Below, piece by piece: positions 3,620 to 42,079 of a DNA stretch of 64,000 nt; position 1 is the stretch's first letter, and each line of letters begins with the position of its first letter. A model generated the notes under the pieces. The model saw only the letters and a list, made by a program, of their open reading frames with translations, was not told where the DNA came from and made no database searches. The stretch lies in IMG/VR virus record IMGVR_UViG_3300033149_002311, positions 1-64,000 of that record. The stretch is one strand, 5' to 3'. Made by a program: the position numbers and the translations under genes. Source of the stretch: a virus.

Positions 3620-5137
3620 ATGAAATATTTTATGGATCTTTTTGTTGCCAATACTGAAGTATTTGGGCAGTGGAATCCGAGTAATAAAGAGATGTTCGCG
3701 GTGAAGTCTAAACACCACGAAGAGCAGTTTAAGAATCATTTTAATGGGATCATGGGATTAGGTTTAGCACCTGTTATGAGTAACAATCATTGTTATTTCG
3801 GGGCTATTGATATTGACGCGCATGGTGATTTACCGGATATTGATATTATTGCTTTAGAGGCAAAGATCAGGGTCGCTGAATTACCGCTTGTGGCTTGCCA
3901 AAGTAAGTCTGGGGGCGCTCATTGTTACGTCTTTTTCGAGGAGCCTGTGCCAGCAGTTATGGTCCAGTTTTTATTGAGAACGTGGTGCAGACTTTTAGAT
4001 TATCCGGAGACCACGGAGATTTTTCCGGTACAAACAGTACTTGAGGAAGGTCAACAAGCTGGGTGGATAAATTTACCATACTTTAACAAAAATCAGCGGG
4101 TTGCAGCTAATGAAGGAAAATTACTTTCATATGAAGAATTTATCGAACTAGCACAGGCTAGAAGAATTAACCCAGATAATATTAGCGATGAAATGCTAAA
4201 ATCGTTTAAAGGAATCCCACCATGCCTACAATCGATGCTAACAAATGGTGTGGAGTCGGGTTATCGCAACCACGCCCTTTACAATTTTACAGTTTATCTA
4301 AAGCGGGCCTATCCCGGCCAGCATCGAGCAAAAGCTCGTAACATCAATGAACTTATTTTCGAACAACCACTATCAAGGCGGGAGGCTGAACGTACAATAG
4401 CATCGGCTTCCAAGCGGGATTATCTTTATAAATGCAAGGAAGAGCCCTGTAAAAGTTTATGTAATCCGGAGGAATGTATTGCTAGAGAATTTGGTATTGA
4501 TCCCGATGAAGATTTTAACAATGGGGAAGAACACCATTTTTCGAATCTCCGGAAGTATATTACTGACGAAACGCATGAATTTGTTGTCTGGGAACTTCAA
4601 TATGACGAACGAACAATAAAAATAAATAATGATGTCTTATCTGATTTCATGATGTTAAGGAAGGAAATCCTAAAACAGTTAGATGTAATGCTCCCCCCCA
4701 TGAAGGTAATGGAATGGACCAATATTCTAAATGATTTATTACAAACTCATACTAAGGAATTTGTGCCAGAAACGGCAACCATGGCTGGGCTGGTAAGAAC
4801 TCGGATGACGGAATTTATTCAAAAGGCCGATCTAGATAGTGATGGGACAAATAAAGATGACCGGGCATTGATTAATAGAGGTGTGCCGGTAGTTCAAGAA
4901 ATGGACGGGGTTCGTTCAGTGTGTTTCCGGGCACAAGACTTTGTTAGTTACCTAAAGAAAACTAGGGGTGAGGATATTAGGGGGTCGAATCTCTATCTTG
5001 CTTTAAGGGCAGCTGGTTTAAAGTCAAGGAGAATTCGTCTTGATGAAACTGGAGCTAAGACTAGTATATGGTATTTACCTATTGATGAGATGGTCCCAAT
5101 GGAATTGGGTGAGGATAATTTTCAATCAGAATATTAG
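3620..5137 (+). CDS. AEP-family DNA primase/polymerase with PriCT-like and Cys-rich domains
   Basis: AIDID and SKSGGAHCY catalytic motifs; GYRNHALYN PriCT-like segment; CKEEPCKSLCNPEEC. Confidence 0.85.
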   Translation: MKYFMDLFVANTEVFGQWNPSNKEMFAVKSKHHEEQFKNHFNGIMGLGLAPVMSNNHCYFGAIDIDAHGDLPDIDIIALEAKIRVAELPLVACQSKSGGAHCYVFFEEPVPAVMVQFLLRTWCRLLDYPETTEIFPVQTVLEEGQQAGWINLPYFNKNQRVAANEGKLLSYEEFIELAQARRINPDNISDEMLKSFKGIPPCLQSMLTNGVESGYRNHALYNFTVYLKRAYPGQHRAKARNINELIFEQPLSRREAERTIASASKRDYLYKCKEEPCKSLCNPEECIAREFGIDPDEDFNNGEEHHFSNLRKYITDETHEFVVWELQYDERTIKINNDVLSDFMMLRKEILKQLDVMLPPMKVMEWTNILNDLLQTHTKEFVPETATMAGLVRTRMTEFIQKADLDSDGTNKDDRALINRGVPVVQEMDGVRSVCFRAQDFVSYLKKTRGEDIRGSNLYLALRAAGLKSRRIRLDETGAKTSIWYLPIDEMVPMELGEDNFQSEY

Positions 5138-5536: not shown

Positions 5537-7982
5537 GAATGACTTGTGAGTTTTTAGGTAGACGGCTAAACTCAAATACTTTGATGTGGGAGTATTCAGA
5601 TGGTTCTGGTAGGTTGATTACTGAGGAAAAAAGAATACGGGTACTAGAGAGTATACATAGTCTGTCTGAGTTTAAGATTAGTGATAAAGTATATAAAGGT
5701 AATAACGGACTTAATGTTTTAGCAGAGCTACATATTAGCTAAGTATGAATATTGAAGAAGATGCGCCTATGAATTACCGAGGAGGTATACTCATGTTCAA
5801 TATTTTCAAAAAGAAAACGACTGAAGAAAAAATAATTAAGCTTAAGTGTGAGATCGCAGCGATGGAAAAGGAGATAGAAGTTCTTTGGAAAATTGAAACT
5901 AAAGGCGGTTATTTATTTGGTAAGCGTGATGAAATCATTTCCGTGGAAAAGAAATTGGCTTACAAGAAAAAGAAAATAGAATTATTACAATGTTAAGTAA
6001 AAGTGGAAAGGTTGAATGGAGTTGCCCTGAATGTGGATCAATTAAGATACAAGGGCCATTTATAATACTTGGGCAGCAATCTGGAGGATGTGGCCACTGC
6101 AATACTTGGTGGCCTTGGCGCTCAAGAATTAAAAAAAGTGTAAAGAAATTGCACAATGAAATTAGAAAGAGAGTGTTTTGTAACAGTTTGAAGGAGAAAT
6201 AGTTATGGCGGTAATGAATCAAAATACGAGTTATGAGAATATTTGTTCTTGCGGCAAACATTTTAAAGGTGATGCATTCCCAGACACCGAATTGATTCCT
6301 GATGAAGCCGGGTCAATTACTGGAAAGGATGGAACTAAAGGTCGGATAGAATGGGTGCCAGCGACAGTTAAAGATGGGTGTAAGGATTGCATATCACGAC
6401 TAGAAAAAGAAGTTGAGGAAAAATACTACGTAGAATTAGATGCTTTGCCTCTCGAAGAAAGAGTACGAAGAATCGAAAAGTGGATAAGGAATTTCAAGCA
6501 TCAAGAACAATGGTATGTGCCGCCACCTAGATATTGAGAAATAATATGAGTGCAGATACATTATGGAATTGGGATGTAAAGTGGGTAAATTTTAAATGAA
6601 TGATGCAGGTTTAATATTTATAGGATTCCCATTTCTTGTGGTTTTTTTAAGTTCAATTATGTGGTTAAGCCATAAATTAGTTGGGATCTTACCCTTGAAT
6701 TATATTCAGCAAACCAAGTGGGAAGATAGAATATTTTGTTTATTATTCATTATTTTTTGGATCGGCTTCGCATTTTTAGCAAAACTAATAGAGGGTTGAT
6801 AAGATGCCACAAATCGGGATGGAAGTAAATGAGAGTGTATGTTGTGATGATTGGCAAACAGGGATAGATGAGATAAATAGTTTTATTACATTGCAATCTA
6901 TACGATCAAGCCAACCAAATATCTACACCGGAAGGCCATTTTCATACTGCCCGTGGTGTGGGATTAGGAAAGCACCGCCAATGGTGGTGGATAAACATAA
7001 AATTATTGAACGCTGGGAATGTAATGGTTGTTATAGGGGGGTGGTAAGTATCCTTGTATAGTAGAAATACACGCTGATAATTCGCAAATTCTTGAACACT
7101 TAAAAGATGCTGATCGATTCGTACGAAAAATATGTGTCTGTGATAACAGCATAACAACTGATTGGGTACGTGTTGTTTGACTATCAGCGGTTGACTATCA
7201 TATCAGTGTGTGGTATGATAGGGTATAGAAAAGAGGGAGGGACAGATGAAATTATCCAGTGGTTTTGATTCACCAAAAGAATTAATAGGTTATTGTTCTA
7301 TTCATTGTGAGACACCGAGAGCACTGTTTAATGGCAGACAAATTAATGATATGATCATGCTTGCGGGATATCCAGATGACTTCCCAAGAGAGGTTGACCC
7401 CAACCTATGGATTTCTGCAAAGCAGCCGATGCAAGATTTGTGCGACTTAGCACTAAAAAGATGAAGGGTAAAATGAAAGCCGTATTAACGGTATACCACT
7501 TTATGTACCCCCAACATTTCTATTATTTGATGGGTAAAGGCATGGGTGTACGCTGGACTCCTTCGTGGTTTATTTTAAGTCCAGTTTTACGTAAAAATTG
7601 GGGAATGCTTATTTTATTATTTTGCTTAGCCGGTTGCAGCGATAAAGTTATACTTAGCTATGAATATACGGACGTCACCCCGATGGGTATTAAATATCGT
7701 GTAGATGCCGGGGCTGCTTCATTAGACGCCGATCGGTTGGATTATTACTTCGCGTCTGTGATGAATTGTGTTGGTCGATCATATGATCCAAATAATTTAT
7801 TAGTTATTTCCACAGTCAGGAATATTGATCCAGAACTAAGGGAACGTGATGTGGTTGTTATCAATGCAATTAATGCACGGGCCTTAACATATGCCATGTT
7901 GACGTATGAATTTGTATATGTAATAACAGGTAATGAATCCCTACGCTGTAGTGAAGTACCATTTGGTTATGCGAGGTATTAA
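5337..7982 (+). other. Cluster of small hypothetical genes (several CxxC proteins, membrane proteins and a lipoprotein-like ORF ending at 7982)
   Basis: Packed + strand ORFs; LAGC lipobox in the 7407-7982 ORF. Confidence 0.65.
7191..7219 (+). promoter_or_regulatory. sigma70-type promoter, nearest upstream of the cassette array
   Basis: TTGACT-17-TATGAT; TTGACTATCA is duplicated at 7177. Confidence 0.75.
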
Positions 7983-8093
7983 CATGAAAAGAGATGATCC
8001 AAGATTAGCAGATTATCTGGAGATCATGGAAGCGGAAGCACATCATGATCACGAAATTATTGAAGATGAGAATGGTTACAGTCGGATTTATCC

Positions 8094-8168
8094 TTATAAC
8101 GCCTGAATTAACGCGCTGGCGTAGCCAGTCGCAGCGAGGAACGAGCAATGTTTAATGATTTGTTATGT
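8094..8168 (+). repeat. attC 1
   Basis: TTATAAC...GTTATGT with inner CTGGCGTAGCCAG hairpin. Confidence 0.85.
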
Positions 8169-8420
8169 GTAAGGCACAATATACATCTTGTATGTATAGG
8201 TGGCTGTAGTGCACATAGAGATAATTGGTATTGCCCTGAGTGTGACAAAGAGAACGATTGTTTTAGGCACAACACGGAATATAAAAAGACCGAGTTTGAA
8301 CATGAGATAAATTGCAAAAAGGGTTTGTGGGGCGTAACCGCACCAACTAAAAAAGAAGCTGAGCGAGAAGCAAGGCATTATTTTCGGCAATATTTTAGTG
8401 ATGGTGAATACAACACATAA
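8148..8420 (+). CDS. Cassette 1 ORF, Cys-rich hypothetical protein
   Basis: GAGGA RBS and ATG lie inside attC 1; stop TAA lies inside ACATAAC. Confidence 0.65.
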   Translation: MFNDLLCVRHNIHLVCIGGCSAHRDNWYCPECDKENDCFRHNTEYKKTEFEHEINCKKGLWGVTAPTKKEAEREARHYFRQYFSDGEYNT

Positions 8421-8472
8421 CGGCTGAACTCAACCGCGAGCGCAGCGAGTCGCTTGGAGTGATTTGTTAGGT
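8415..8472 (+). repeat. attC 2
   Basis: ACATAAC...GTTAGGT. Confidence 0.85.
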
Positions 8473-8484
8473 ACGGAGGAGACA

Positions 8485-8784
8485 ATGAAAGAAGAAGAAT
8501 TAAGAGAGTGTGCTGTATGTGCTAATTGCGAAAAGAAAATAGGGCATACAGGTATGCCAATATTTCATAGAGTGAGCGTGCAAACATACGGCCTTGATGG
8601 CCACGCTATGCAACGACAAACAGGGATGGAAATGATAATGGGTGGCCATGTTGGTTTGGCTCAAGTTATGGGTGCAAACGAAGATTTAGCAACTGAGATT
8701 GGCGAGAAAGAAGAATTTACATTATGCGCTGATTGTTGGGTGAAAGAATTACCAATAGCTTCACTGGTTGAGTCTAGTACCTAA
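8485..8784 (+). CDS. Cassette 2 ORF, CxxC hypothetical protein
   Basis: GGAGGAG RBS; stop inside ACCTAAC. Confidence 0.8.
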   Translation: MKEEELRECAVCANCEKKIGHTGMPIFHRVSVQTYGLDGHAMQRQTGMEMIMGGHVGLAQVMGANEDLATEIGEKEEFTLCADCWVKELPIASLVESST

Positions 8785-8852
8785 CGATTAGCTATGCGGC
8801 TGGCGTAAGCCAGTCCGAGCGAGGAACGAACGGCATAAGCGGCTTGTTATAA
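8779..8852 (+). repeat. attC 3
   Basis: ACCTAAC...GTTATAA; same family as attC 1 and attC 12. Confidence 0.85.
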
Positions 8853-8871
8853 ATCAAACACAGGTGAAGGT

Positions 8872-9057
8872 ATGTCAAAAAATGTGAAATGCAAATGTGG
8901 TATTGAATCGATTTACGTTACTAGCACAGATAAAACTAAGGACGGGAAATATTACTGTATTAGAAAACCGCCAATATCAACTGAGCATGTTGGGCATTTG
9001 ATAACAACAGCTCCGGCAACCGCCTTTGTTGATGAACCGCATAGATGTGCGGATTGA
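8872..9057 (+). CDS. Cassette 3 ORF, hypothetical protein
   Basis: ORF fills the space between attC 3 and attC 4. Confidence 0.7.
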   Translation: MSKNVKCKCGIESIYVTSTDKTKDGKYYCIRKPPISTEHVGHLITTAPATAFVDEPHRCAD

Positions 9058-9058
9058 T

Positions 9059-9116
9059 TTATAACGACCGCGATAAGCTGTGAGCGTAGCGAATCAGCTT
9101 CATTAGCTTGTTATGT
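9059..9116 (+). repeat. attC 4
   Basis: TTATAAC...GTTATGT. Confidence 0.85.
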
Positions 9117-9126
9117 GTGGTAATTA

Positions 9127-9422
9127 ATGCAAATGAACGATAAAAATATAGGTGTTTTTGATTGTTGCAAATGCTTAAAGAGGTTTGAAATGGTAGCGGG
9201 ACCGCATGTCAAATGCCCGTTTTGTGAGCACGTTTATATCAAATGGATAAATAAATTATGAAGAATTACATAAAAACAATTTTAGAGCGCATTGTTAACT
9301 ACCGCACGGGTCCAGTAGCCTGGTGGGGATTCTGGAATCCTTTAAGTGGTATAGCTGGAGGATTATTTGGCGGGACGTTGATATGGATTGCTATTTACTT
9401 ATACTTAGCTTTTTACACATAA
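9127..9422 (+). CDS. Cassette 4, two small ORFs: 9127-9261 (44 aa, CxxC...CPFC) and 9258-9422 (54 aa, hydrophobic)
   Basis: Translated by hand (below the ORF-track cutoff); ATGA overlap; second stop lies inside ACATAAC. Confidence 0.65.
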
Positions 9423-9537
9423 CGTTAAAGCTGTGCTGCCTGCGGATTGAAACCACTGGAGAATATTATGGTAGACGAAGCCACTGAACAAGAATCAAAC
9501 GCCGAGGTAGCAGGTCAGAACCAGCGTGTTGTTATGC
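9417..9537 (+). repeat. attC 5 (long, 121 bp)
   Basis: ACATAAC...GTTATGC; arms CTGCCTGC / GCAGGTCAG. Confidence 0.8.
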
Positions 9538-9779
9538 GCCTTATTACCGAGACAGATCAACTCGAAGTCGGTAGAAAATATTGGGTAAAGGAAAAACACT
9601 TTGAGACAAGCATTGATAATATTAGGGTTTGTGAAGATCACCCCGAAGGTGGTAAGTATTTTGGACCGGGTAATACATGGGCTTCCGAAAGTAATCCACA
9701 GGCATTTAGGCGTTGGCATATCTACGGGCCAATTCCTGAGCTAACAAAGCCTGACTGGGACGAAATACTGGGCACATAA
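9468..9779 (+). CDS. Cassette 5 ORF, paralogue of the central domain of 15438-16118
   Basis: GGAGA RBS and ATG inside attC 5 (alternative ATG at 9534); LEVG..YW...KYFG...AF.RW.I.GPIP is shared. Confidence 0.75.
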   Translation: MVDEATEQESNAEVAGQNQRVVMRLITETDQLEVGRKYWVKEKHFETSIDNIRVCEDHPEGGKYFGPGNTWASESNPQAFRRWHIYGPIPELTKPDWDEILGT

Positions 9780-9843
9780 CATATTGAAATAAGCGGCACG
9801 AGCCGCAACGCGGCGATGGTCGCGCTTGATTGATTGGTTATGT
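9774..9843 (+). repeat. attC 6
   Basis: ACATAAC...GTTATGT; near-identical to attC 8. Confidence 0.85.
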
Positions 9844-9862
9844 TGCGACTATGGAGGAAGCA

Positions 9863-10144
9863 ATGGAAACAAAAACAGTGTTAGTTTTTACTGCCTGCAA
9901 ATGTTTGAAATGCGGGACAGTGAACGCATACCACCGTTGCGGGTGTTCGTGTTGGCCAAGCATCGGATTATTGCCACCCGATATAGAAAATTATCGAATG
10001 CAATATGGTTTTTTTATGGAAGGCAAAAAAATGCCTGACAACTTTATTTCATTCGATGAGGTTAAGGAACTTCTTACTAATGATAGGCAGGTATGGGGGC
10101 CGGATGGATTGCCTATTACATTGGCGGATTTTGATGACGCCTAA
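9863..10144 (+). CDS. Cassette 6 ORF, Cys-rich hypothetical protein
   Basis: GGAGG RBS; stop inside GCCTAAC. Confidence 0.75.
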   Translation: METKTVLVFTACKCLKCGTVNAYHRCGCSCWPSIGLLPPDIENYRMQYGFFMEGKKMPDNFISFDEVKELLTNDRQVWGPDGLPITLADFDDA

Positions 10145-10269
10145 CGATTAATTGAGGGGCGCACGATGGGCGAAAAACAAACTTTATGTACACGCGCAAA
10201 TATGAAACCGTGGGAAAAAATTGTTGAAACTGACGCAGAAAGTGCGTCCCCTCCAATGGCTGGTTATGC
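10139..10269 (+). repeat. attC 7 (long, 131 bp)
   Basis: GCCTAAC...GTTATGC; arms GAGGGGCGCAC / GTGCGTCCCCTC. Confidence 0.85.
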
Positions 10270-10435
10270 CTGGACAGGGTTGCCAATGGCCACATGCCCG
10301 CATTGTAATGTGGAATCACAGATTGATGATTACTACGAATTAAGTGCTGGGAGTACCTTCACATGCCCCGCATGCGAAAAGGAAATAGAAATTCTAGAGA
10401 GGCACGAAGTAGTAGAAATTAAAGTGAAGGCATAA
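10166..10435 (+). CDS. Cassette 7 ORF, zinc-ribbon protein (CPHC...CPAC)
   Basis: Stop inside GCATAAC; start uncertain (10166, 10256 or 10286). Confidence 0.7.
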   Translation: MGEKQTLCTRANMKPWEKIVETDAESASPPMAGYAWTGLPMATCPHCNVESQIDDYYELSAGSTFTCPACEKEIEILERHEVVEIKVKA

Positions 10436-10499
10436 CGGATGAAAATAAGCGGCACGAGCCGCATCGCGGCGAGGGTCGCGCTTGATTGATTGGTTAGGT
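10430..10499 (+). repeat. attC 8
   Basis: GCATAAC...GTTAGGT. Confidence 0.85.
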
Positions 10500-10520
10500 G
10501 CCTGCTTGGAGATAATTGTA

Positions 10521-10875
10521 ATGATAATAACATCGACTGAATTTGATAAAGCCATTGAAAAAGAATTAGACCGACTGACAAAAGAGAGCATAAATGCTTA
10601 CACGGAAACCGAAGAATTTTATGAGCGGCTTGAATTAGAAACACGAAAAGAACTTGCGGCCATAAATTCATTTTTCCTCTGGCGCTGGTGACGACAAACC
10701 TCTGCAATTATATGTCCATTCACCCACGATGGATGACGGGTGCAGAATTAACATCGAAACAATACTCGAAGATGATATAAATGAAATCAAAGAAGATGAT
10801 AACGAGCAACTTCGTTACATATTAAATCGACTCGAACTTATGGTTCAGAAGCTCAAAGCTCAAATAGGCACCTAA
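10521..10875 (+). pseudogene. Cassette 8 ORF, probably split by a +1 frameshift near 10670
   Basis: The first frame runs 10521-10691; the +1 frame is open 10666-10875 and ends inside ACCTAAC. Confidence 0.5.
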
Positions 10876-10934
10876 CGATTAAGTTAAAGGGTTGCGCCGC
10901 TTTTGCGCAATCCATTTTGAACGCCTTGTTATGT
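10870..10934 (+). repeat. attC 9
   Basis: ACCTAAC...GTTATGT; arms GGGTTGCGC / GCGCAATCC. Confidence 0.85.
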
Positions 10935-10958
10935 GCAAGGCAAACGCTGGGGATAGAA

Positions 10959-11204
10959 ATGAGTAAGATAGAAAAAGGCGTAATGATAATGAAAGACGGC
11001 AAGGCATGGGGTGAAACTTATGCAGACGGTCACAGCACTTCATACGGATGGATGGATGCAGAGTCAGCCCCAATTCATGACCCGAAATTTTGCAAGAAGG
11101 TTACAGATGTTACTTATGCGGGAAGTTATCTTATTCCTGAACTTAAAAAAGGAAAGTTAGTAGAAGTTGAGCGCGTGACAACCGTTAAAATTATTGGCAC
11201 ATAA
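10959..11204 (+). CDS. Cassette 9 ORF, hypothetical protein
   Basis: GGGGA RBS; stop inside ACATAAC. Confidence 0.8.
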   Translation: MSKIEKGVMIMKDGKAWGETYADGHSTSYGWMDAESAPIHDPKFCKKVTDVTYAGSYLIPELKKGKLVEVERVTTVKIIGT

Positions 11205-11257
11205 CGAAAAAGCTAACCCGCTGGCGTAGCCAGTCGGAATTGAGCGCCTGGTTATAT
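11199..11257 (+). repeat. attC 10
   Basis: ACATAAC...GTTATAT. Confidence 0.85.
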
Positions 11258-11268
11258 TGCGAGGCAGT

Positions 11269-11484
11269 ATGGAAATAGAAAAACTTGAACTTCCCAAACC
11301 CGAACGAAGGTGGCGTGAACAGCGTTGTGCGAGGATCACGCAATCTACTGGCACGGCCCACTTTGAGGGGAAGAAAAATCAATGCGGGCGCATGGCGCGA
11401 TTTAAACTTGAGGGCATCCCCTTTTGCACGCAACATGCTGGCGAAATGGCGCTGAAACACTTGATTAGTGAGAAAGCAATATAA
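11269..11484 (+). CDS. Cassette 10 ORF, C3H zinc-finger-like paralogue of 20814-21059
   Basis: C..MARFKLEGIPFCTQHAG versus C..YARYQIGDKYFCRKHAG. Confidence 0.8.
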   Translation: MEIEKLELPKPERRWREQRCARITQSTGTAHFEGKKNQCGRMARFKLEGIPFCTQHAGEMALKHLISEKAI

Positions 11485-11536
11485 CGACCAAGCTCACCCG
11501 AGAGCGTAGCGAATCGGGTGCAGTGATTGGTTATAT
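11479..11536 (+). repeat. attC 11
   Basis: ATATAAC...GTTATAT; arms CACCCGA / TCGGGTG. Confidence 0.85.
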
Positions 11537-11549
11537 TTTGGAGATAATT

Positions 11550-11753
11550 ATGGGATTTGATAGTGTTGACGAAGAAAAATTACAGCGTGATCTTGTGATG
11601 ATTAGGGCTGCGTTAACTATACAGGCGTTACAAATGCGTAATGAGATTTTTGCTGGAGGCGTAATGGATAAAGATACTTTTGACCAGGAATACTTGAACG
11701 GTATTGGTGAATACGAGCGCGAACTTGCCGAAAGAGAAGGTATAGAAATATAA
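11550..11753 (+). CDS. Cassette 11 ORF, hypothetical protein
   Basis: GGAG RBS; stop inside ATATAAC. Confidence 0.8.
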   Translation: MGFDSVDEEKLQRDLVMIRAALTIQALQMRNEIFAGGVMDKDTFDQEYLNGIGEYERELAEREGIEI

Positions 11754-11820
11754 CGATTAGCTATGCGGCTGGCGTAAGCCAGTCCGTGCGAAGCACGTAC
11801 TTTAACGATTAATTGGGGGA
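11748..11820 (+). repeat. Truncated attC 12 fused to a second attC left arm
   Basis: The left part matches attC 3 (TAACGATTAGCTATGCGGCTGGCGTAAGCCAGTCCG), then TAACGATTAATTGGGGG resembles the attC 7 left arm; no R' box. Confidence 0.75.
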
Positions 11821-11823
11821 CAT

Positions 11824-12072
11824 ATGATGAGTGAAGAAATGGTAGACATTGAACTAAATCTAGGTAAAGTGTGTGCTGATGAAATTAGTAAGATGACTAA
11901 AACGAAGTTAATTAATCGCCTAGTTGTGTCTGTATTACGCGGTAGGGTTCAAGATGAAACGGTAACTGATCTTGAAAGAGAAGTTGAAAATTTACAAGAA
12001 CGATTAAATAAGGCAAGGGATAATATCAAACAAGCCGAGGCCATGGTGATTGCTGCCATGGAACGATGGTGA
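11824..12072 (+). CDS. Coiled-coil hypothetical protein
   Basis: ORF with GGGGGA RBS. Confidence 0.7.
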   Translation: MMSEEMVDIELNLGKVCADEISKMTKTKLINRLVVSVLRGRVQDETVTDLEREVENLQERLNKARDNIKQAEAMVIAAMERW

Positions 12073-12755
12073 ATTATAAAATTATCCTAGATGAGCAGAA
12101 ATTATTGAATTTTATTGCTTGGTTACCTAATCTTGTAGAGGGTGAGTGTTATTATGTAAGCCTGTTTGCTCGAAAGAAGTATCATGTGAGCGCACAAAAT
12201 GATAAGTGTAATTGCAAGCGGTTTACGGCTACAGATAAAGGGTGGTTAATAAAGAAGATCAGGCAATTAGAAATACCAATAGGCCGATATTTCAATAAAA
12301 ATGGTACGCCGGTTCACAACGATGCATTGGCACTGTATATTTCCATCAACCCTCGAAGTTTTGCTGGTGCGCAGAAACGTCTTTTAATTCGTCTAGCAGA
12401 GGTGATAACTAGAGGTAATATAAATTTAAATCCAGCTTCCATGGCTTTAAGCGATATCCAACGATCTAAGAGCCGGACAGTTTTTGTAGATTTCGATTTC
12501 GATGATGTTCAATTTAATGATTTACCGGTATTAAAATACATTATCAATAGGGAAGCCTTTGATGTATTAAATACTAGGGGTGGTTTTCATTTATTAGTCA
12601 GACCAGATAAAGTCACTGAAGAGTTTAAAAATAATTGGTATAAAAATTTAACAGCTATCCCACAATGTGACGTAAGTGGCGATAACATGATCCCTATCGC
12701 TGGTTGCACACAAGGGGGTTATACGCCGTGGTTAGATTCGACTACTGGGGATTGA
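12066..12755 (+). CDS. Hypothetical protein with AEP/prim-pol-like motifs
   Basis: FVDFDFD and TRGGFHLL resemble AEP motifs I and II. Confidence 0.5.
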   Translation: MVNYKIILDEQKLLNFIAWLPNLVEGECYYVSLFARKKYHVSAQNDKCNCKRFTATDKGWLIKKIRQLEIPIGRYFNKNGTPVHNDALALYISINPRSFAGAQKRLLIRLAEVITRGNINLNPASMALSDIQRSKSRTVFVDFDFDDVQFNDLPVLKYIINREAFDVLNTRGGFHLLVRPDKVTEEFKNNWYKNLTAIPQCDVSGDNMIPIAGCTQGGYTPWLDSTTGD

Positions 12756-12780
12756 CTGATATGCTGATATATGATATAAT
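12752..12780 (+). promoter_or_regulatory. sigma70-type promoter
   Basis: TTGACT-17-TATAAT followed by an AGAGGAGAG RBS. Confidence 0.85.
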
Positions 12781-12969
12781 GGGCATATAGAGGAGAGAGT
12801 ACATGATAAAACGCTATATCATAATGACAGTATTTTCAGTCGCAATCCCAGCATGGATTGGTTTTATAATGGATGGTGATTGGCGGTCTGATCACGCTAT
12901 CGGACTGATGATTGGTTGCCTAATATGCACATGGGTGATACAACCTATAACAGATTTATTTAGGGGATC

Positions 12970-14184
12970 ATGGTGAAAATCTATGCAGAAGTCCTTGAAG
13001 AAACCGCTTTAGAACAGTTCAATCTGGCTATGGAACAACCATTTGTTCTCAATGGCGCTCTTATGCCTGATGCTCACACAGGTTATTCATTACCGATAGG
13101 TGCCGTAATAGCTACAGATAACATGATTTTACCTTCATGGGTTGGGTATGATATAGGGTGTGGTATGTGTGCCTTAAAGTTAGAAGGTATTGATATTAAT
13201 GGCATAAATGTTCATTTAAAAGAAATCTTCGATGAGATTTACCGGAGGATTCCTGTTGGATTCAATGTTAACGAGACTGAAACTGAATATAGCTCTGCTG
13301 GCCTTACTAATGCTGGGATGGTAATAGCTCAAAGAAAAAAGTATAAACAGGCTTTGGGTTCTTTGGGTGGAGGTAATCATTTTATTGAAATTGGTTATGA
13401 TGAAAATGATGAAATCTGGGTTGTAATTCACTCTGGTAGTCGGGGAGTTGGGCATGGTATCGCTACCCACTACATGACTGTAGCTTCCAGCGACCCTATA
13501 ACTCTTGAAGAAGAATTTGACGCCACACACAAAGACTTACTAAAACATAATCCAGGCCAGTACGAGAGCCATAAGGCCAGATATGTTGAGAGAAAAATGG
13601 GAAAGTTACGCCCAAAAGAAGGACATTATGGATTTAAAGCCGATTCTCAGGAAGGTAGAGATTATATTCAAGACCTTAATTGGGCGCTTGATTATGCCTT
13701 AATGAACCGTAGAACCATGATGGAACGTGTGATTGACTCGATTACTTGTTGTCTTAATTTATCTTGCTATGAGCTAGATTTTACTGTATTGATAAATCGA
13801 AATCACAATCATGCTGTTTACGATACTATGAAAGACTGGTGGGTTCATCGAAAAGGGGCTACACATGCTGAACTAGGTATGATGGGTGTTATCCCCGGAA
13901 ATATGCGGGATGGTAGTTTCATCGTAAGAGGTAAAGGAAATCCCGAATCATTGAATTCAAGCTCCCATGGTGCCGGACGGGTTTTAGGGAGAAAGGAAGC
14001 TAAAAGGGTCTTGAAGTTTGAGGACTTTCAAGACGTGATGGGCGGCGTGACTGCCTTGGTGACAGAAAAGACTCTAGATGAATCGCCGATGGCTTATAAG
14101 GATATTTTTGAGGTAATGAGACTACAGGAAGACTTGGTAGAAACCATCCATCACATCAGGCCAATCATAAACATTAAGGGTTAA
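12970..14184 (+). CDS. rtcB: RtcB RNA 3'-phosphate/5'-OH ligase
   Basis: MPDAH, VGYDIGCG, SLGGGNHFIE, HSGSRG, HNH, HRKGA, SHGAGR and DESPMAYK motifs. Confidence 0.95.
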   Translation: MVKIYAEVLEETALEQFNLAMEQPFVLNGALMPDAHTGYSLPIGAVIATDNMILPSWVGYDIGCGMCALKLEGIDINGINVHLKEIFDEIYRRIPVGFNVNETETEYSSAGLTNAGMVIAQRKKYKQALGSLGGGNHFIEIGYDENDEIWVVIHSGSRGVGHGIATHYMTVASSDPITLEEEFDATHKDLLKHNPGQYESHKARYVERKMGKLRPKEGHYGFKADSQEGRDYIQDLNWALDYALMNRRTMMERVIDSITCCLNLSCYELDFTVLINRNHNHAVYDTMKDWWVHRKGATHAELGMMGVIPGNMRDGSFIVRGKGNPESLNSSSHGAGRVLGRKEAKRVLKFEDFQDVMGGVTALVTEKTLDESPMAYKDIFEVMRLQEDLVETIHHIRPIINIKG

Positions 14185-15018
14185 ATAGAGGAAAGAGCAA
14201 TGGAAGTTAGATATTGTGAATTTACTGGTGATAGCAAAAAAGCGTGGGACGAAGTTCCTAGGAGAGTTTGTGAATACGCCGGGTTTTCGCATTGCATACT
14301 ACATGATACATCGATAAAAATAAGTGCTGATGGTTGGCGAGTATGTTGTGATAAATGTGAAACCCCAAAACAGGTAAAATTATCTTGCCCTGAATGTGAT
14401 GGCGGTATGTTCATATATGACGGGATTCATCATGAAGTACAGTGGGGCGGCAAGTGTAATAAGTGTGGATTTACATCAATGTTTGATAAAAAGCCACCAA
14501 TATCATGAGAAAAAAACGATCTAGAAAGGATTATGGTGGCGGCAGTGGGAAAAGTCACTTCGACAGTAGAATTTTCAGTGTGGTTATCTGGAGGCTGACA
14601 CATGGTATAAGAACCACTATCACATGGGGGGATTTTGGGGAGATTCATTTCGATGGAAAACATCCTGATTTAAATTCTGATAAAGCGTGTGTGGAACAAC
14701 TTACAGGTACTGAAATTTTAAGATTAATAGTTGATCGAGAGAAAGAAGCTTTTAGAAAGGGTGAAAATAGTAGGATAAATGAATTTAAGTCATTTTTAAG
14801 GATACGTTAATGTATAAATATTTAACCATCATTTTAATATACTTGTTAATTGCCGGATGTTCAGTAGAACCAACTGATAAGCAGTATACTAATGCACGAA
14901 CATGGTGTGACAATTTTGGGGGATTGAAAACGTTAAGTTTTAGTAATATCAGTGGATTACGCGTATGATGTATGGATAGTAAACTAATTATCGACGACAC
15001 CAGCAACTAGGATATATT

Positions 15019-15441
15019 ATGAAAAACTTATTAAGATTTGGTTCCGACCCAGCATTACATACAATCTGTGAGAATATACCCACTGATTATGATGTGGATA
15101 GCCTGCTTGATACCATGTGGGAAACTATGTATGGTCAGAAAGGCATCGGGTTAGCGGCCCCGCAAATAGGGCAGACTAAACGGGCCATAGTGATGCACGT
15201 TAAGGGTCTTAAGCTAGAATTAATCAATCCTATAATAACTAAGATGTATGGGGGTAAAACTACATCTAAGGAAGGATGCCTATCATTTCCCGGTAAACAG
15301 GTAAGCATGCTCCGCTATAAGCAGGTAGTAATAGAAGGTTATGACAGGAACTGGAAACCCATAAAAAGAAAACTTAAGGGCTTGGCCGCCATGTGCGCTC
15401 AACATGAAGTCGATCATCTCAACGGGGTTACTATAGCATGA
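15019..15441 (+). CDS. def: Peptide deformylase
   Basis: GIGLAAPQIG, EGCLS and QHEVDHLNG motifs; C-terminally short, as in phage PDFs. Confidence 0.95.
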   Translation: MKNLLRFGSDPALHTICENIPTDYDVDSLLDTMWETMYGQKGIGLAAPQIGQTKRAIVMHVKGLKLELINPIITKMYGGKTTSKEGCLSFPGKQVSMLRYKQVVIEGYDRNWKPIKRKLKGLAAMCAQHEVDHLNGVTIA

Positions 15442-40501: not shown

Positions 40502-42079
40502 ATGCAAAATATGCAAGATCATTATAGCACTAAAGAAACGCCCCAGTCTGAAAAGATTCCGGGCAGTAACCAAGTGCAAAATAACGCTGGTGGTTTCAGT
40601 TTTGCTATGAATTGTTGGGCACGATTAAATCAATTTTTAATTCTAGGTTCATCCGGTGGGACGTACTACGTTAATGAAAAGAAGTTAACTATTGATAATG
40701 CTGAGGCTGTTCGCGAATGTATCAAGGCCGACGGTGTTCGTACAGTTAATACTATCGTTGAAATCAGTGATGCTGGCCGTGCGCCCAAGAATGATCCTGC
40801 TCTTTTTGCTCTTGCTATGTGTACCAAGTTTGGTGATGTGGAAACACGCCGCACCGCTTATGCTGCATTGCCTAAGGTAGCTAGAATCGGAACACATCTG
40901 TTTAACTTCGTGGCTTATCGCGAGGCTTTTGGTGGTTGGGGCCGTGGAATGCGGAATGCCGTTGCCAAGTGGTATCAAGATAAGGACTTAGGTAAACTGG
41001 CCTATCAAATGATCAAGTACCAACAGCGTGATGGCTGGTCTCACCGGGATTTGTTGAGACTGTCCCATCCGAAGACCGATGATGCCAGTCGGAACGCCCT
41101 ATATGCTTATGCTGTAGGTAAGCAATCTGAGGCCGAATTACCAAGTATCGTTAAGGCGTTTGAAATTGCTAAGCACACGGAGACTGCTAAAGAAATGGTT
41201 TATTTGATCAGCGAGCACGGTTTAACTCGTGAAATGATTCCCACCCAGTTCTTATCGGACCCTCTGATATGGGAGGCATTGTTGGAAAAAATGCCACTGA
41301 TGGCTATGATCCGGAATCTGGGTAATTTATCAAAATGTGGGCTATTAAAGCCTATGTCACAGGCTGCTAATACTGTGGTCTCCCGGCTCATGGACGGTAC
41401 TGCCCTGCAGCGCTCACGGATACACCCTATATCAGTACTGGCGGCACTGACGACGTACGGGGGAGGGCAGGGAGTGCGTGGGAATGGTACATGGACACCA
41501 GTACCACAGGTGGTAGATGCACTGGATGACGCTTTCTATTTATCATTCGGCAACATCGAATGCACTGGGAAACGATTTCTGCTGGGTATCGATGTTTCAG
41601 GTTCAATGACCTTTAGTTCAAGTAGAATTGCGGGATTGGCTAATATTACAGCAAATGTAGCAGCGGCTGCAATGGCTATGGTAACTGCGCGATCCGAAAG
41701 CCAATATTATGCCATGGGTTTTTCGGATGAATTTCGTGATTTAGGTATTACGCCGCGAATGCGACTTGATCAGGTGATACGGAAAACACGATCACAATCC
41801 TTCGGACGAACCGATTGCGCATTGCCGATGTTATGGGCTGAGAAAAACAATATTAAAGTTAATACATTTGTAATCTACACTGATAGTGAAACATGGGCAG
41901 GCCGGATACACCCACCCCAAGCATTAGATTCATATCGTCAGAAAATGGGAATCGGCGCAAAGTTAGTTGTAGTAGGTATGACATCAAATGGATTTAGCAT
42001 CGCTGACCCCTCTGATGCTGGAATGTTGGATGTGGTCGGATTTGACACGGCAACACCCAACATAATCAGTAATTTTTAA
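40502..42079 (+). CDS. Ro60/TROVE-domain RNA-binding protein (Rsr-like)
   Basis: QVQNNAGGFSF, FLILGSSGGTYY, KYQQRDGWSHRDLLRLSHPK, MPLMAMIRNLG, vWA DVSGSM and TDSETW. Confidence 0.95.
   Translation: MQNMQDHYSTKETPQSEKIPGSNQVQNNAGGFSFAMNCWARLNQFLILGSSGGTYYVNEKKLTIDNAEAVRECIKADGVRTVNTIVEISDAGRAPKNDPALFALAMCTKFGDVETRRTAYAALPKVARIGTHLFNFVAYREAFGGWGRGMRNAVAKWYQDKDLGKLAYQMIKYQQRDGWSHRDLLRLSHPKTDDASRNALYAYAVGKQSEAELPSIVKAFEIAKHTETAKEMVYLISEHGLTREMIPTQFLSDPLIWEALLEKMPLMAMIRNLGNLSKCGLLKPMSQAANTVVSRLMDGTALQRSRIHPISVLAALTTYGGGQGVRGNGTWTPVPQVVDALDDAFYLSFGNIECTGKRFLLGIDVSGSMTFSSSRIAGLANITANVAAAAMAMVTARSESQYYAMGFSDEFRDLGITPRMRLDQVIRKTRSQSFGRTDCALPMLWAEKNNIKVNTFVIYTDSETWAGRIHPPQALDSYRQKMGIGAKLVVVGMTSNGFSIADPSDAGMLDVVGFDTATPNIISNF

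What the first reader, a model, noticed from the sequence alone, without database searches (positions are those of the whole stretch)
8094..11820. A phage carrying an integron cassette array: 11 attC sites, no integrase in the window
Seen: 11 imperfect palindromes run from an AAC-ending R'' box to a GTT-starting R' box (8094, 8415, 8779, 9059, 9417, 9774, 10139, 10430, 10870, 11199, 11479), plus a truncated twelfth at 11748. For 9 of 11 cassettes the GTTNNNN at the cassette start is the exact reverse complement of the R'' at its end (GTTAGGT/ACCTAAC, GTTATAA/TTATAAC, GTTATGC/GCATAAC, GTTATAT/ATATAAC, etc.). The other two have 1 and 2 mismatches. In 10 of 11 cassettes the stop codon is the TAA of R''. 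Established: this is what IntI-mediated insertion of circular cassettes at G/TT leaves behind; integrons are regarded as bacterial chromosome or plasmid elements. Inference: the phage borrows a host (or out-of-window) IntI to gain and shuffle early genes, expressed from the phage promoter at 7191.
Basis: partly seen in the sequence, partly recalled or inferred. Interest (0 to 1): 0.95.

Follow-up and report, generated by a model that had tools for sequence, protein, structure and literature searches.

The report
Integron cassette array in a phage
A large uncultured phage carries eleven small early genes, each packaged as an integron-type gene cassette with a folding recombination site but no integrase; phages with such arrays were first published in 2023, so this is a big new example, with its genes facing the opposite way to bacterial cassettes.

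Summary
Eleven hairpin sites and a truncated twelfth lie at 8094-11800, all on the + strand. Nine match a covariance model built only from other viral contigs (seven at E <= 0.0014). That model family also detects class 1 attC sites in plasmids, and the attC sites of Pseudoalteromonas phage H101, which Qi et al. 2023 showed to be IntI1 substrates.

The boxes flanking each gene pair with each other (9 of 11 pair 6-9 bases beyond AAC/GTT; 0 of 100,000 permutations match this). The two boxes of one site do not pair. This is the mark of cassette recombination.

No integron integrase or other tyrosine recombinase is in the 89-kb record (estimated 79% complete).

The gene-sense strand is the attC bottom strand. 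The genes are therefore reversed relative to bacterial cassettes, and the predicted crossover is AA/C at each stop codon, not G/TT on that strand.

Four viral contigs with the same site type carry true IntI. This scan has noted phage arrays with reversed cassettes before, on other DNA.

The parts
7191..7219 (+). Sigma-70-like promoter (TTGACT, 17 nt, TATGAT, with TG). It is the nearest strong promoter-like site upstream of the array.
   Evidence: 10 of 12 matches, second best of the 17 sites in 6000-13500. It is a consensus match only; function is inferred.
8094..8168 (+). attC site a, 75 nt, with a two-part terminal structure. 5' box TTATAAC, 3' box GTTATGT.
   Evidence: R1 scores 28.6 bits (E 2.9e-4) in the whole-record search. 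R2, built without window sequences, scores 17.8 bits (E 0.13). The bulged T is at position 16 from the 3' end. A similar long variant occurs in L016.
8100..8420 (+). Cassette 1 (321 bp): hairpin a plus ORF 8148-8420 (90 aa).
   Evidence: The flanking boxes pair 6 bases beyond the core. The ORF ends at the box TAA. No Pfam or PHROG match.
8415..8472 (+). attC site b, 58 nt. Terminal loop GCGCAGC, bulged G at position 16.
   Evidence: R2 scores 61.2 bits, E 8.6e-12. R1 scores 65.2 bits on + and 8.2 on -.
8421..8784 (+). Cassette 2 (364 bp): hairpin b plus ORF 8485-8784 (99 aa).
   Evidence: Box run 6. An identical protein is recorded on 7 contigs and a 76% relative on 1. A 36% relative lies next to the array of L106.
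8779..8852 (+). attC site c, 74 nt, with a two-part terminal structure and bulged A at position 16.
   Evidence: R1 scores 22.7 bits, E 0.008. R2 scores 15.1 bits, E 0.53. Its 5' half recurs at 11751-11800 with 92% identity.
8785..9064 (+). Cassette 3 (280 bp): hairpin c plus ORF 8872-9057 (61 aa). The stop is a TGA just before the box.
   Evidence: Box run 9; ORF.
9059..9116 (+). attC site d, 58 nt. Loop GCGTAGC, bulged C at position 16.
   Evidence: R2 scores 62.2 bits, E 5e-12.
9065..9422 (+). Cassette 4 (358 bp): hairpin d plus two overlapping ORFs, 9127-9261 (44 aa) and 9258-9422 (54 aa).
   Evidence: Box run 6; ORFs.
9417..9537 (+). Long candidate site e (121 nt). The ATG of the next ORF (9468) lies inside its loop.
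   Evidence: The minimum-energy fold pairs the two boxes and an outer stem, but z is -0.29. No model hit. Weakly supported.
9423..9779 (+). Cassette 5 (357 bp): ORF 9468-9779 (103 aa).
   Evidence: Box run 3, with 1 mismatch in the 7-mer. A paralogue with 43% identity lies at 15756-15950 outside the array.
9774..9843 (+). attC site f, 70 nt, bulged G at position 16. It is 90% identical to site h.
   Evidence: R2 scores 26.1 bits, E 0.0014. R1 scores 26.5 on + and 10.6 on -. The repeat is family D3.
9780..10144 (+). Cassette 6 (365 bp): ORF 9863-10144 (93 aa).
   Evidence: Box run of only 1, with 2 mismatches in the 7-mer. This is the worst-fitting cassette.
10139..10269 (+). Long candidate site g (131 nt). 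It has a 14/16-nt outer stem with extra bases on the 3' arm. The ATG of ORF 10166 lies inside its loop.
   Evidence: The stem appears in the folds (z -1.17). R1 gives only 9.6 bits at 10228-10269. Weakly supported.
10145..10435 (+). Cassette 7 (291 bp): ORF 10166-10435 (89 aa), a zinc-ribbon-like protein.
   Evidence: Box run 6. It has weak zinc-ribbon matches below the Pfam cut-offs, and phrog_16376 at E 6e-6.
10430..10499 (+). attC site h, 70 nt, bulged G at position 16.
   Evidence: R2 scores 31.2 bits, E 8.9e-5.
10436..10875 (+). Cassette 8 (440 bp): ORFs 10521-10691 and 10729-10875. These may be one frame-shifted gene.
   Evidence: Box run 8; ORFs.
10870..10934 (+). attC site i, 65 nt, bulged G at position 16.
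   Evidence: R2 scores 34.1 bits, E 1.9e-5.
10876..11204 (+). Cassette 9 (329 bp): ORF 10959-11204 (81 aa).
   Evidence: Box run 6.
11199..11257 (+). attC site j, 59 nt. Loop GCGTAGC, bulged G at position 16.
   Evidence: R2 scores 53.8 bits, E 4.8e-10.
11205..11484 (+). Cassette 10 (280 bp): ORF 11269-11484 (71 aa).
   Evidence: Box run 7.
11479..11536 (+). attC site k, 58 nt. Loop GCGTAGC, bulged C at position 16.
   Evidence: R2 scores 68.5 bits, E 1.7e-13. R1 scores 70.8 on + and 8.1 on -.
11485..11753 (+). Cassette 11 (269 bp): ORF 11550-11753 (67 aa).
   Evidence: Box run 6 against the box of the truncated site.
11748..11815 (+). Eroded right end of the array. It holds a truncated copy of site c (5' box, 5' arm and loop only), followed by a second AAC box with the first 13 nt of a g-type site.
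   Evidence: families D2 (92%) and D5 (78%). R1 scores 9.3 bits. No 3' arm and no GTT box.

Best explanation
Window 8100-11753 is an integron-type cassette array without an integrase (a CALIN). It sits in the early region of a large phage of virulent type. Each of the eleven units consists of the C of an AAC box, a folding attC site, a ribosome-binding site, one or two small ORFs, and a TAA that is itself part of the next AAC box.

The gene-sense + strand is the attC bottom strand, the strand that integron integrases fold and cut. The predicted crossover is therefore between AA and C right after each stop codon, and each hairpin travels with the gene that follows it.

I infer that the array was built and shuffled by an IntI-type integrase acting on the folded single strand. 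The record does not encode that enzyme. It would have to come in trans, from a host chromosomal integron or from a co-infecting temperate phage that carries intI; such phages exist with the same site type. Otherwise the array is a fossil of an intI-bearing ancestor.

The genes face the opposite way to bacterial cassettes. I infer this is because they are transcribed by read-through from phage promoters at the far end of the array (such as 7191), not from an integron Pc promoter.

Shown: the sites, their structure, their family membership, the hybrid boxes, the strand, and the absence of a recombinase. Inferred: the enzyme, when it acted, and how the genes are expressed.
For: 1. Family membership.
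- Model R2, built from 42 sites of other IMG/VR contigs, was run over the 64-kb window on both strands with filters off. It finds 9 of the 11 full sites, all on +. Seven have E <= 0.0014 (26-68 bits) and two are weak (17.8 and 15.1 bits). Only one other hit appears, at chance level (E 4.7).
- R1 finds 9 hits in the whole record, and all 9 lie in the array.
- R1 also hits 3 of the 5 expected attC sites in two class 1 plasmid integrons (47.7, 45.7 and 38.1 bits).
- R1 hits three sites of Pseudoalteromonas phage H101 at 57-60 bits. Qi et al. 2023 recombined that phage's attC sites with IntI1.

2. Structure. On 46 aligned sites, 85.9% of cells pair against 75.7% in shuffles (0 of 500 reach it). 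Covariation is 0.289 against 0.120 (0 of 500). Controls with the 3' partner slid by 1-3 columns pair only 27-40%. All 9 short window sites carry a single bulged base at position 16 from the 3' end; it is G in 5. This matches the bottom-strand description in Nivina 2016.

3. Strand.
- In the class 1 controls the model hits the strand on which intI1 is + and the resistance genes are -.
- In 77 intI-bearing viral loci, 44 of 44 hits lie on the intI strand, and 40 of those 44 are upstream of intI.
- In the window, + scores are 26-71 bits against 5-11 on -.

4. Recombination signature. Cassette-wise box pairing beats every one of 100,000 permutations. Across 21 arrays the mean run is 4.31 cassette-wise (n=71), 2.05 site-wise (n=92) and 1.76 for other pairs (n=8301).

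5. The hairpin travels with the downstream gene.
- In H101, two copies of the same upstream ORF are followed from AAC onward by different hairpins.
- In L039, different upstream ORFs are followed from AAC onward by an identical, unusual hairpin and the same downstream sequence.
- In the window, similarity between sites c and l starts at TAAC.
- Two ORF starts lie inside long sites.

6. True IntI with the same site type. 4 of 4 tested recombinases from records G034, G040, G020 and G022 score 372-408 bits on TIGR02249, whose cut-off is 265. They sit next to terminase or primase genes.

7. The cassette ORFs have a GC content of 0.409 against 0.404 for the genome, so they look native to the phage.
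Against: - No IntI and no other tyrosine recombinase is in the record (0 hits), and no attI was recognised. Activity in this phage is therefore unproven.
- Folding energies of the five sites tested are no better than shuffles. The minimum-energy folds of the nine short sites often miss the expected hairpin.
- The two long sites are not found by the models, and two short sites score weakly.
- Only 3 of 12 5' boxes fit the strict RYYYAAC consensus. 9 of 12 have A at the third position.
- Cassettes 5 and 6 break the complementarity rule.
- In one group of near-identical sites (L005, L012, L033, L068, L111, L115) the exchange points fall inside the hairpin. Ordinary homologous recombination therefore also shuffles such arrays, and could have contributed here.
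- No close relative of this phage could be fetched, so no gain or loss of any cassette in this particular array has been seen.
- The four named relatives have no such sites (0 of 4).
Confidence: 0.8

Rival explanations
1. The phage picked up a stretch of a bacterial chromosomal integron by illegitimate recombination or imprecise excision. Qi et al. describe this for Vibrio anguillarum phages. On this reading the array is passive cargo.
For: The same loop type (GAGCGTAGCGA[A/G]TC) occurs in at least 120 bacterial genome stretches from many phyla. Qi et al. 2023 report phage capture of chromosomal integron fragments (passages).
Against: - All eleven cassettes carry their ORFs on the attC bottom strand. 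Bacterial sites of this type mostly have ORFs on the other strand. For ORFs ending at the box TAA, the bacterial count is 6 same-strand to 16 opposite, against 18 to 2 in viral contigs (Fisher 4e-5). For the longest flanking ORF, the counts are 6 to 63 against 21 to 5 (2e-11).
- The GC content of the cassette ORFs equals that of the phage.
- One cassette gene has a paralogue elsewhere in the phage.
- The one cassette protein searched has only 2 relatives among 5.8 billion proteins, and neither carries a bacterial name.
Confidence: 0.06
2. The hairpins are phage intergenic elements (RNA stabilisers, attenuators or recombination hot spots) that spread small early genes by homologous recombination. 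This would resemble the promoter-stem-loop cassettes of T4-type phages. The likeness to attC would then be convergent.
For: Exchange points fall inside the hairpin in the homogeneous group of contigs. The sites are intergenic, co-oriented with the genes and would be transcribed. No integrase is in the record.
Against: - A model built from these sites detects class 1 attC sites strand-specifically.
- The bulged base sits at the canonical position 16 in 9 of 9 short sites.
- The window's arms pair within a site while its boxes pair across the gene. That places the exchange points at the boxes, not in the hairpins.
- Sites of the same family in phage H101 are IntI1 substrates.
- No T-run follows the hairpins on the + strand.
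Confidence: 0.07
3. The array is served by a recombinase of the phage's own that lies in the part of the genome missing from the record. This could be intI or a small Xer-type enzyme, as earlier notes of this scan reported for other phage arrays.
For: CheckV puts the record at 79% complete. 286 IMG/VR stretches encode IntI relatives. In 4 of 4 records examined, intI lies directly downstream of an array of the same site type.
Against: In those records intI directly follows the last cassette. Here the array is followed by ordinary phage genes (ORFs 11824-12072 and 12066-12755, then rtcB) and by an eroded site. Of the 16 records that hold this site type and are at least 90% complete, only 2 have any tyrosine recombinase.
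Confidence: 0.1
4. The array is an assembly chimera joined at about 8.1 and 11.8 kb.
For: The array GC is 0.43 against 0.40 in the flanks. Read continuity could not be checked.
Against: - The excess GC lies in the hairpins (0.489); the ORFs are at 0.409.
- GC skew runs unbroken through the array (0.20-0.26).
- Phage genes lie on both sides on the same strand: a primase at 3620-5137 and rtcB at 12970-14184.
- Uncultured relatives with 69-70% identical RtcB carry sites of the same kind.
Confidence: 0.02

Closest known systems
CALINs (clusters of attC sites lacking an integrase) in virulent phages, above all Pseudoalteromonas phage H101 (Qi, Rajabal, Ghaly, Tetu and Gillings 2023, Front Microbiol, PMC9892861)
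   Same: Both have the same attC sub-family; one H101 site is in my model, and three score 57-60 bits. Both have no integrase. Both hold small ORFs of unknown function. Both have the ORFs on the strand that the model reads as the bottom strand; all 16 annotated CDS in the H101 stretch are +. Two H101 attC sites were tested with IntI1 x attI1, and the only one of the six phage sites that failed came from another phage.
   Different: The window has eleven full sites plus remnants, against 3 strong and 1 weak model hit in H101. The phage lineage differs: this one is distantly like Grimontviridae (RtcB 48-50%), while H101 is a Shandongvirus. The paper's main text does not discuss gene orientation relative to the attC strand.
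attC sites of class 1 mobile integrons (aadA2 and aadA5 cassettes)
   Same: Length is 57-60 nt. Both have AAC and GTT boxes, a 5-nt unpaired spacer, a bulged G at position 16 and a T at position 23, and a GCGTAGC or GCGCAGC terminal loop. My phage-built model detects them.
   Different: In class 1 integrons the genes lie on the strand opposite the one the model hits, next to intI1, attI1 and Pc. Here the genes lie on the hit strand, and intI, attI and Pc are all absent.
Sedentary chromosomal integrons of marine Gammaproteobacteria and other bacteria
   Same: Both are long arrays of small cassettes of unknown function. The same loop type occurs in Rheinheimera, Simiduia, Oceanisphaera, Pseudoalteromonas and others.
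   Different: Those arrays are chromosomal, linked to intI, and mostly have classical gene orientation. Their sites are as a rule homogeneous within an array (recalled), while the window's sites are heterogeneous in length (58-131 nt) and sequence.
Promoter-early stem-loop (PeSL) cassettes of T4-type phages
   Same: In both, small early genes in a plastic region are bounded by repeated stem-loop elements and shuffled between phages.
   Different: As I recall them, PeSL elements are an early promoter plus a terminator and move by homologous recombination. The window's elements have attC architecture, carry no promoter, and have exchange points at AAC boxes.

Membership tests
Integron attC site | A conserved AAC triplet in the 5' box of the bottom strand and GTT in the 3' box (consensus RYYYAAC ... 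GTTRRRY) | tested here: met
   AAC and GTT are present in 11 of 11 full sites (asserted). Only 3 of 12 5' boxes fit the strict RYYYAAC 7-mer; 9 of 12 have A at the third position. Nivina 2016 says only the triplet is conserved among all sites.
Integron attC site | An imperfect hairpin made of an R box, an unpaired central spacer of about 5 nt, an L box and a variable terminal structure | tested here: met
   9 of 11 full sites align end to end to a covariance model with this structure. Covariation supports the L helix: 6 of its 9 pairs change on both sides. Folding energy alone is not significant. The two long sites are not covered by the model.
Integron attC site | An extrahelical base in L'' of the bottom strand at position 16, usually G | tested here: met
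   All 9 short sites have a single bulge at position 16, counted from the 3' end of the + strand: G in 5, C in 2, T in 1 and A in 1 (alignments). The same count gives G16 and T23 in the aadA2 attC control, and Nivina 2016 uses those names for attCaadA7.
Integron attC site | A second extrahelical base further in (T23 or T24) | tested here: inconclusive
   By hand, from the alignments, T is at 23 in sites b, d and k and at 24 in site j. In the other five short sites the inner part differs and I could not assign it.
Integron attC site | Detection together with undisputed attC sites by one sequence-and-structure model, strand-specifically | tested here: met
   R1 hits the class 1 attC sites of the aadA2, gcuF-like and aadA5 cassettes on the bottom strand (47.7, 38.1 and 45.7 bits, against at most 9.6 on the other strand). 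It misses or barely sees the two dfrA attC sites.
Integron attC site | A match to the IntegronFinder or HattCI attC models | not tested
   Neither program is available here. Rfam holds no attC family, and its scan gave 6 chance-level hits.
Integron attC site | Recombination by an integron integrase as a folded bottom strand | not testable with these tools
   This needs the bench assay. Sites of the same family in phage H101 passed it according to Qi et al. 2023.
Integron gene cassette array | Hybrid sites: the box after a gene pairs with the box before that gene, not with its partner in the same site | tested here: met
   9 of 11 cassettes pair at least 6 bases beyond the core. No site does so within itself (0 of 11). 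0 of 100,000 permutations match this.
Complete integron | An integron integrase gene (IntI, TIGR02249) next to the array | tested here: not met
   0 matches to TIGR02249 and 0 to PF00589 in the 89,264-bp record, searched in six frames. The record is estimated to be 79% complete.
Complete integron | An attI site and a Pc promoter at the integrase end of the array | tested here: inconclusive
   The right end holds only eroded attC remnants. I had no model of attI to search with.
CALIN | Two or more attC sites close together with no integron integrase nearby | tested here: met
   Nine model-supported sites lie within 3.5 kb, spaced 280-656 bp apart, and there is no integrase.
Classical cassette (bacterial integron) | The ORF lies on the attC top strand, with the attC downstream of the ORF inside the cassette | tested here: not met
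   All cassette ORFs are on the + strand, which is the bottom strand. The hairpin goes with the downstream ORF. ORF starts lie inside two long sites.

The most novel reading that the evidence does not exclude
Phages keep an integron cassette pool of their own, in which genes lie on the attC bottom strand, the reverse of bacterial cassettes. An integrase still inserts these cassettes in the usual orientation relative to attI. They are then transcribed by read-through from phage early promoters at the far end of the array, not from Pc. Temperate phages that carry intI next to terminase or primase genes would be the workshops of this pool. Integrase-less lytic phages like this one, which also encodes a PurZ-like enzyme and so may have a 2-aminoadenine genome, would draw on the pool in trans during co-infection or in hosts with chromosomal integrons, swapping small early (possibly counter-defence) genes.
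Probability: 0.35. Interest if true: 0.8.

Novelty: new member of a known kind. Interest (0 to 1): 0.5.

Why it matters
Integron cassettes are best known as the vehicle of antibiotic resistance and, more recently, of anti-phage defence in bacteria. This array shows the same machinery organising about a dozen early genes of a large lytic-type phage. The array is several times longer than the one published phage example I could inspect, Pseudoalteromonas phage H101.

Two points could interest specialists:
- The genes lie on the strand that the integrase folds. Cassette orientation relative to the promoter is thus inverted compared with bacteria, and the same holds in H101, a published and experimentally tested phage.
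- The same attC sub-family links integrase-less phages, intI-bearing phage contigs and class 1 resistance cassettes. This gives a concrete route for gene traffic between them.

If phage early genes are exchanged this way, cassette arrays would be a good place to look for new counter-defence genes.

Tried and rejected
- Rfam scan of 6000-14000 at E <= 10. It gave 6 chance-level hits, and Rfam has no attC family.
- Megablast of 7000-12500 against named phages. No match.
- A scan of my own for TAAC ... GTTA pairs enclosing a minimum-energy hairpin. It was insensitive and recovered only 4 of the 9 short sites. It did reveal the long site at 10139 and one unrelated candidate at 82413-82468, which the models do not support.
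- Minimum-energy folds of both strands of nine sites and fold z-scores of five sites. Energies do not set the sites apart from shuffles, so I do not use them as support.
- A partner box for the first site. GTTATAGGG at about 7030 fits with 1 mismatch in 9, but it lies inside an ORF with no hairpin. I estimate about a 0.1 chance of such a match within 1.1 kb, so I dropped it.
- A 9-bp inverted repeat between 11802-11811 and about 11905-11916. It might mark a further degenerate long site around the start of ORF 11824. I did not resolve this.
- Near relatives of this phage:
  - Viral contigs searched with the 229-aa protein after the array gave two distant loci.
  - Viral contigs searched with RtcB gave two loci at 69-70% identity.
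  - Metagenome contigs gave three distant loci.
  - As a result I could not observe any cassette gained or lost in this very array.
- Public sequencing runs for 7500-12500. None was listed.
- Gene orientation in 24 high-GC intI-bearing loci by longest open frame. The result was 63 unclear, 13 same strand and 9 opposite. The measure fails at high GC, so I make no claim beyond G022 (two cassette genes with PHROG matches on the site strand) and the start signals seen after sites in G034, G020 and G040.
- The rule that the hairpin goes with the downstream gene does not hold in the homogeneous group L005/L012/L033/L068/L111/L115, where the breaks fall inside the hairpin.
- Cassette functions. Of the 9 cassette proteins scanned in Pfam and 10 in PHROGs, only one matched anything, a zinc-ribbon-like protein.

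Full report
**What the window is.** The window is the first 64 kb of an IMG/VR virus record of 89,264 bp, classed as linear and estimated 79% complete. It is a phage. PHROG matches include a primase (3620-5137), helicases, a family A DNA polymerase (48124-49956), a PurZ-like adenylosuccinate synthetase (50952-52001), a Ro60-like RNA-binding protein, a tail fibre and a tape measure. Its RtcB (12970-14184) is 48-50% identical to that of Proteus phages J3S, Privateer and YP1 and of Cronobacter phage vB_CsaP_009. J3S, Privateer and vB_CsaP_009 are classed in Grimontviridae. Genes run on the + strand up to about 55 kb, with an unbroken positive GC skew.

- In 9 of 11 cassettes the 7-mer after one site is the exact reverse complement of the 7-mer before the next. 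The other two show 1 and 2 mismatches.
- 10 of 11 cassettes stop at the TAA inside the box.
Beyond the AAC/GTT core, the boxes flanking a gene pair for 6,6,9,6,3,1,6,8,6,7,6 consecutive bases. The two boxes of one site pair for only 2,1,1,2,3,4,1,1,1,2,5.
- Re-pairing the boxes at random reached the observed 9 of 11 runs of >=6 in 0 of 100,000 permutations.

- 59 distinct sequences also had a GTT box at the right distance.
- About 53 of the 59 show the full layout by eye; I set aside L010, L045, L050, L082, L089 and L109 as chance.
- I aligned 42 of these with 4 window sites. On that alignment the hairpin I wrote down pairs in 85.9% of cells, against 75.7% in shuffles (0 of 500 reach it).
- Covariation is 0.289 against 0.120 (0 of 500). 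With the 3' partner slid by 1-3 columns, only 27-40% of cells pair.
- Six of the nine L-helix pairs change on both sides. The outer three R-box pairs are unpaired in 37-57% of sites, which is what hybrid boxes predict.

**Model searches confine the sites to the array.**
- Model R1 was built from that alignment. It finds 9 hits in the whole record, all on the + strand between 8094 and 11536.
- Model R2 was built without any window sequence. It finds the same nine: seven at E <= 0.0014 (26.1-68.5 bits) and two weakly (17.8 and 15.1 bits). Its only other hit is at chance level.
- The two long sites, 9417-9537 and 10139-10269, are not found by the models. They rest on their boxes and an outer stem.
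- Folding energies of the five sites tested are not better than shuffles (z -0.06 to -1.17). I do not count energy as support.

**The sites are integron attC sites.** Three independent links show this.
- Class 1 controls. I fetched two class 1 integrons from plasmids, oriented with intI1 on + and the resistance genes on -. R1 hit the attC sites of aadA2 (47.7 bits), a gcuF-like cassette (38.1) and aadA5 (45.7), all on the + strand. The same places scored at most 9.6 bits on the - strand. R1 missed or barely saw the two longer dfrA attC sites, so it detects 3 of 5. The aadA2 attC even shares the GCGTAGC terminal loop.
- Phage H101. Locus L028 is 100% identical to Pseudoalteromonas phage H101. 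This is one of three virulent phages from which Qi et al. 2023 each took two attC sites; IntI1 recombined 5 of those 6 into attI1 (section 3.4 read). R1 scores three H101 sites at 57-60 bits.
- True IntI beside the same site type. Among 50 IMG/VR records that hold this site type, 8 have a tyrosine recombinase. I tested the best match of four records, and 4 of 4 are true integron integrases (TIGR02249 372-408 bits, cut-off 265). They lie next to large-terminase genes (G034, G020) or, in G022, a few kb downstream of a phage primase gene with the cassette array in between. I did not test the other recombinase matches against TIGR02249.

**Which strand is which.** Nivina et al. 2016 (passages read) describe the bottom strand as 5'-RYYYAAC ... 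GTTRRRY-3', with the extrahelical bases near L'' and a G at position 16.
- Counted from the 3' end of the + strand, all 9 short window sites have their single bulged base at position 16: G in 5, C in 2, T in 1 and A in 1.
- The same count gives G16 and T23 in the aadA2 control.
- In the class 1 controls the model hits the strand that carries intI1, not the cassette genes.
- In 77 further intI-bearing viral loci, 44 of 44 hits at E <= 0.01 are on the intI strand, and 40 of the 44 lie upstream of intI. These 77 are the best 80 of 286 IntI relatives found, minus the three records already studied.

The + strand of the window is therefore the bottom strand, and every cassette gene lies on it. This is the reverse of the classical arrangement.

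**The reversed arrangement is common among viral contigs.**
- In H101 all 16 annotated CDS of the stretch lie on the hit strand.
- Among sites of this loop type, ORFs ending at the box TAA lie on the written strand versus the opposite strand 18:2 in viral contigs and 6:16 in bacterial genomes (Fisher 4e-5).
- By longest flanking ORF the counts are 21:5 against 6:63 (2e-11). Many cases were unclear in both measures.

**Where the cassettes begin and end.** Both possible crossover points, at the 5' box or at the 3' box, predict the same box complementarity, so other evidence is needed. Four lines agree.
- Integron chemistry cuts the bottom strand at AA/C of the 5' box.
- In H101, two copies of one ORF run identically up to the AAC and are then followed by different hairpins. 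In L039, two different ORFs are followed from the AAC onward by an identical and unusual hairpin and the same downstream sequence.
- In the window, the similarity between the 8779 site and its truncated copy at 11748 starts at TAAC. The same is true for 10142 and 11803.
- The start codons of ORFs 9468 and 10166 lie inside the two long sites. One relative (L137, 17698-17768) shows the same arrangement.

Each hairpin therefore belongs to the gene after it. The eleven units measure 269-440 bp.

One group of contigs with nearly identical sites (L005, L012, L033, L068, L111, L115) behaves differently. There the 5' arm follows the upstream gene and the 3' arm follows the downstream gene. I read this as ordinary homologous recombination between look-alike sites, acting on top of site-specific exchange.

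**What is missing.**
- The record has no match to TIGR02249 or PF00589 in six frames.
- The right end of the array is eroded. It holds a half site followed by the first 13 nt of another, then ordinary phage genes. In the intI-bearing records, by contrast, intI follows the last cassette directly.
- Named relatives have no such sites: 0 of 4 for J3S, vB_CsaP_009, Privateer and Salmonella phage Arash. An uncultured relative with 69% identical RtcB has 7, at another place in its genome. A second uncultured relative has a single site directly upstream of rtcB.
No public sequencing run was listed. Turnover in this particular array and read continuity therefore remain unshown.

**Cargo and expression.**
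- The cassette ORFs have the phage's own GC content (0.409 against 0.404). The array's higher GC comes from the hairpins (0.489).
- One cassette gene has a 43% identical paralogue outside the array, at 15756-15950.
- Of the cassette proteins scanned (9 in Pfam, 10 in PHROGs), only one matches anything, a zinc-ribbon-like protein.
- The promoter-like site at 7191 is among the best in the region. No + strand terminator-like site coincides with an attC. Read-through transcription is plausible but untested.

**Comparison with what is known.**
- Phage CALINs are in print. Qi et al. 2023 screened 10,705 phage genomes and found 3 complete integrons, one In0 and 17 CALINs.
- Three full-text searches found no other paper on attC arrays in phages. 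One 2026 survey of Acinetobacter phages found none (passages read).
- The main text of Qi et al. does not discuss gene orientation relative to the attC strand.
- Earlier notes of this scan report phage arrays with reversed cassettes and no integrase on other DNA (e1-5971010), and arrays beside small Xer-type recombinases (e1-5729963 and others). I looked for such an enzyme here and found none.

**Verdict.** This is a real array, bigger than H101's, and a new member of a published kind: an integrase-less attC cassette array in a phage. The claims of novelty and of the crossover side were not. The reversed gene orientation, which this phage shares with H101 and many viral contigs, is the part most worth following up.

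Noticed in passing
window 50952-52001 (with 48124-49956): The ORF matches phrog_1211, the PurZ-type adenylosuccinate synthetase (E 2e-92), and lies beside a family A DNA polymerase. The phage may replace adenine with 2-aminoadenine. If so, the AAC cores of its attC sites would be modified in virion DNA, and how an integrase would handle that is unknown.
   Followed up: partly
window 40502-42079 and 12970-14184: A Ro60-like RNA-binding protein (phrog_850, E 8e-87) and an RtcB RNA ligase are encoded in the same phage. This fits the RNA-repair or decoy module that another first-stage note describes.
   Followed up: no
L135 (record G022, 43,323 bp with direct terminal repeats), locus 11182-15073, minus strand: This apparently complete phage carries a true integron. 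Six attC sites are followed by intI on the same strand. Its cassettes include a PAPS-reductase-like gene (phrog_424) and a phrog_872 gene, both on the attC bottom strand. The record holds two further tyrosine recombinases.
   Followed up: partly
IMG/VR, loci L268-L347: 286 viral-contig stretches encode relatives of integron integrase. The best 80 are 46-100% identical to the query IntI (the 100% locus is the query's own record). Most are high-GC contigs of 6-68 kb. IntI in viral contigs therefore seems far commoner than the 4 cases among 10,705 cultured phage genomes in print, unless many of these contigs are misclassified bacterial DNA.
   Followed up: partly
L005, L012, L033, L058, L068, L101, L111, L115 (related IMG/VR contigs): The same few cassettes occur in different orders and copy numbers; one cassette is present twice in L033. 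Exchange points often fall inside the near-identical hairpins. This looks like homologous recombination between attC sites.
   Followed up: partly
L137 16956-20950 and L136 2404-2473: Two uncultured relatives (RtcB 69-70% identical) carry attC sites at other genomic places. One has an array of at least six sites about 6 kb downstream of rtcB, with cassette-wise box pairing of up to 10 nt by eye. One of its units is 2.4 kb and multi-gene, with a promoter-like stretch. The other relative has a single self-complementary site directly upstream of rtcB.
   Followed up: partly
window 8415-8472, 9059-9116, 11199-11257, 11479-11536 and most family members: The terminal loop is GCGTAGC (GCGCAGC in one site). 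This is the same as in the aadA2 attC. As I recall it, it has the form of the very stable d(GCGNAGC) DNA mini-hairpin. That would favour folding of the single strand as DNA.
   Followed up: no
window 15756-15950: A paralogue of cassette gene 9468-9779 (43% identity over 72 aa) lies outside the array with no attC beside it. A cassette gene may have been fixed in the backbone, or a backbone gene may have been recruited into a cassette.
   Followed up: partly
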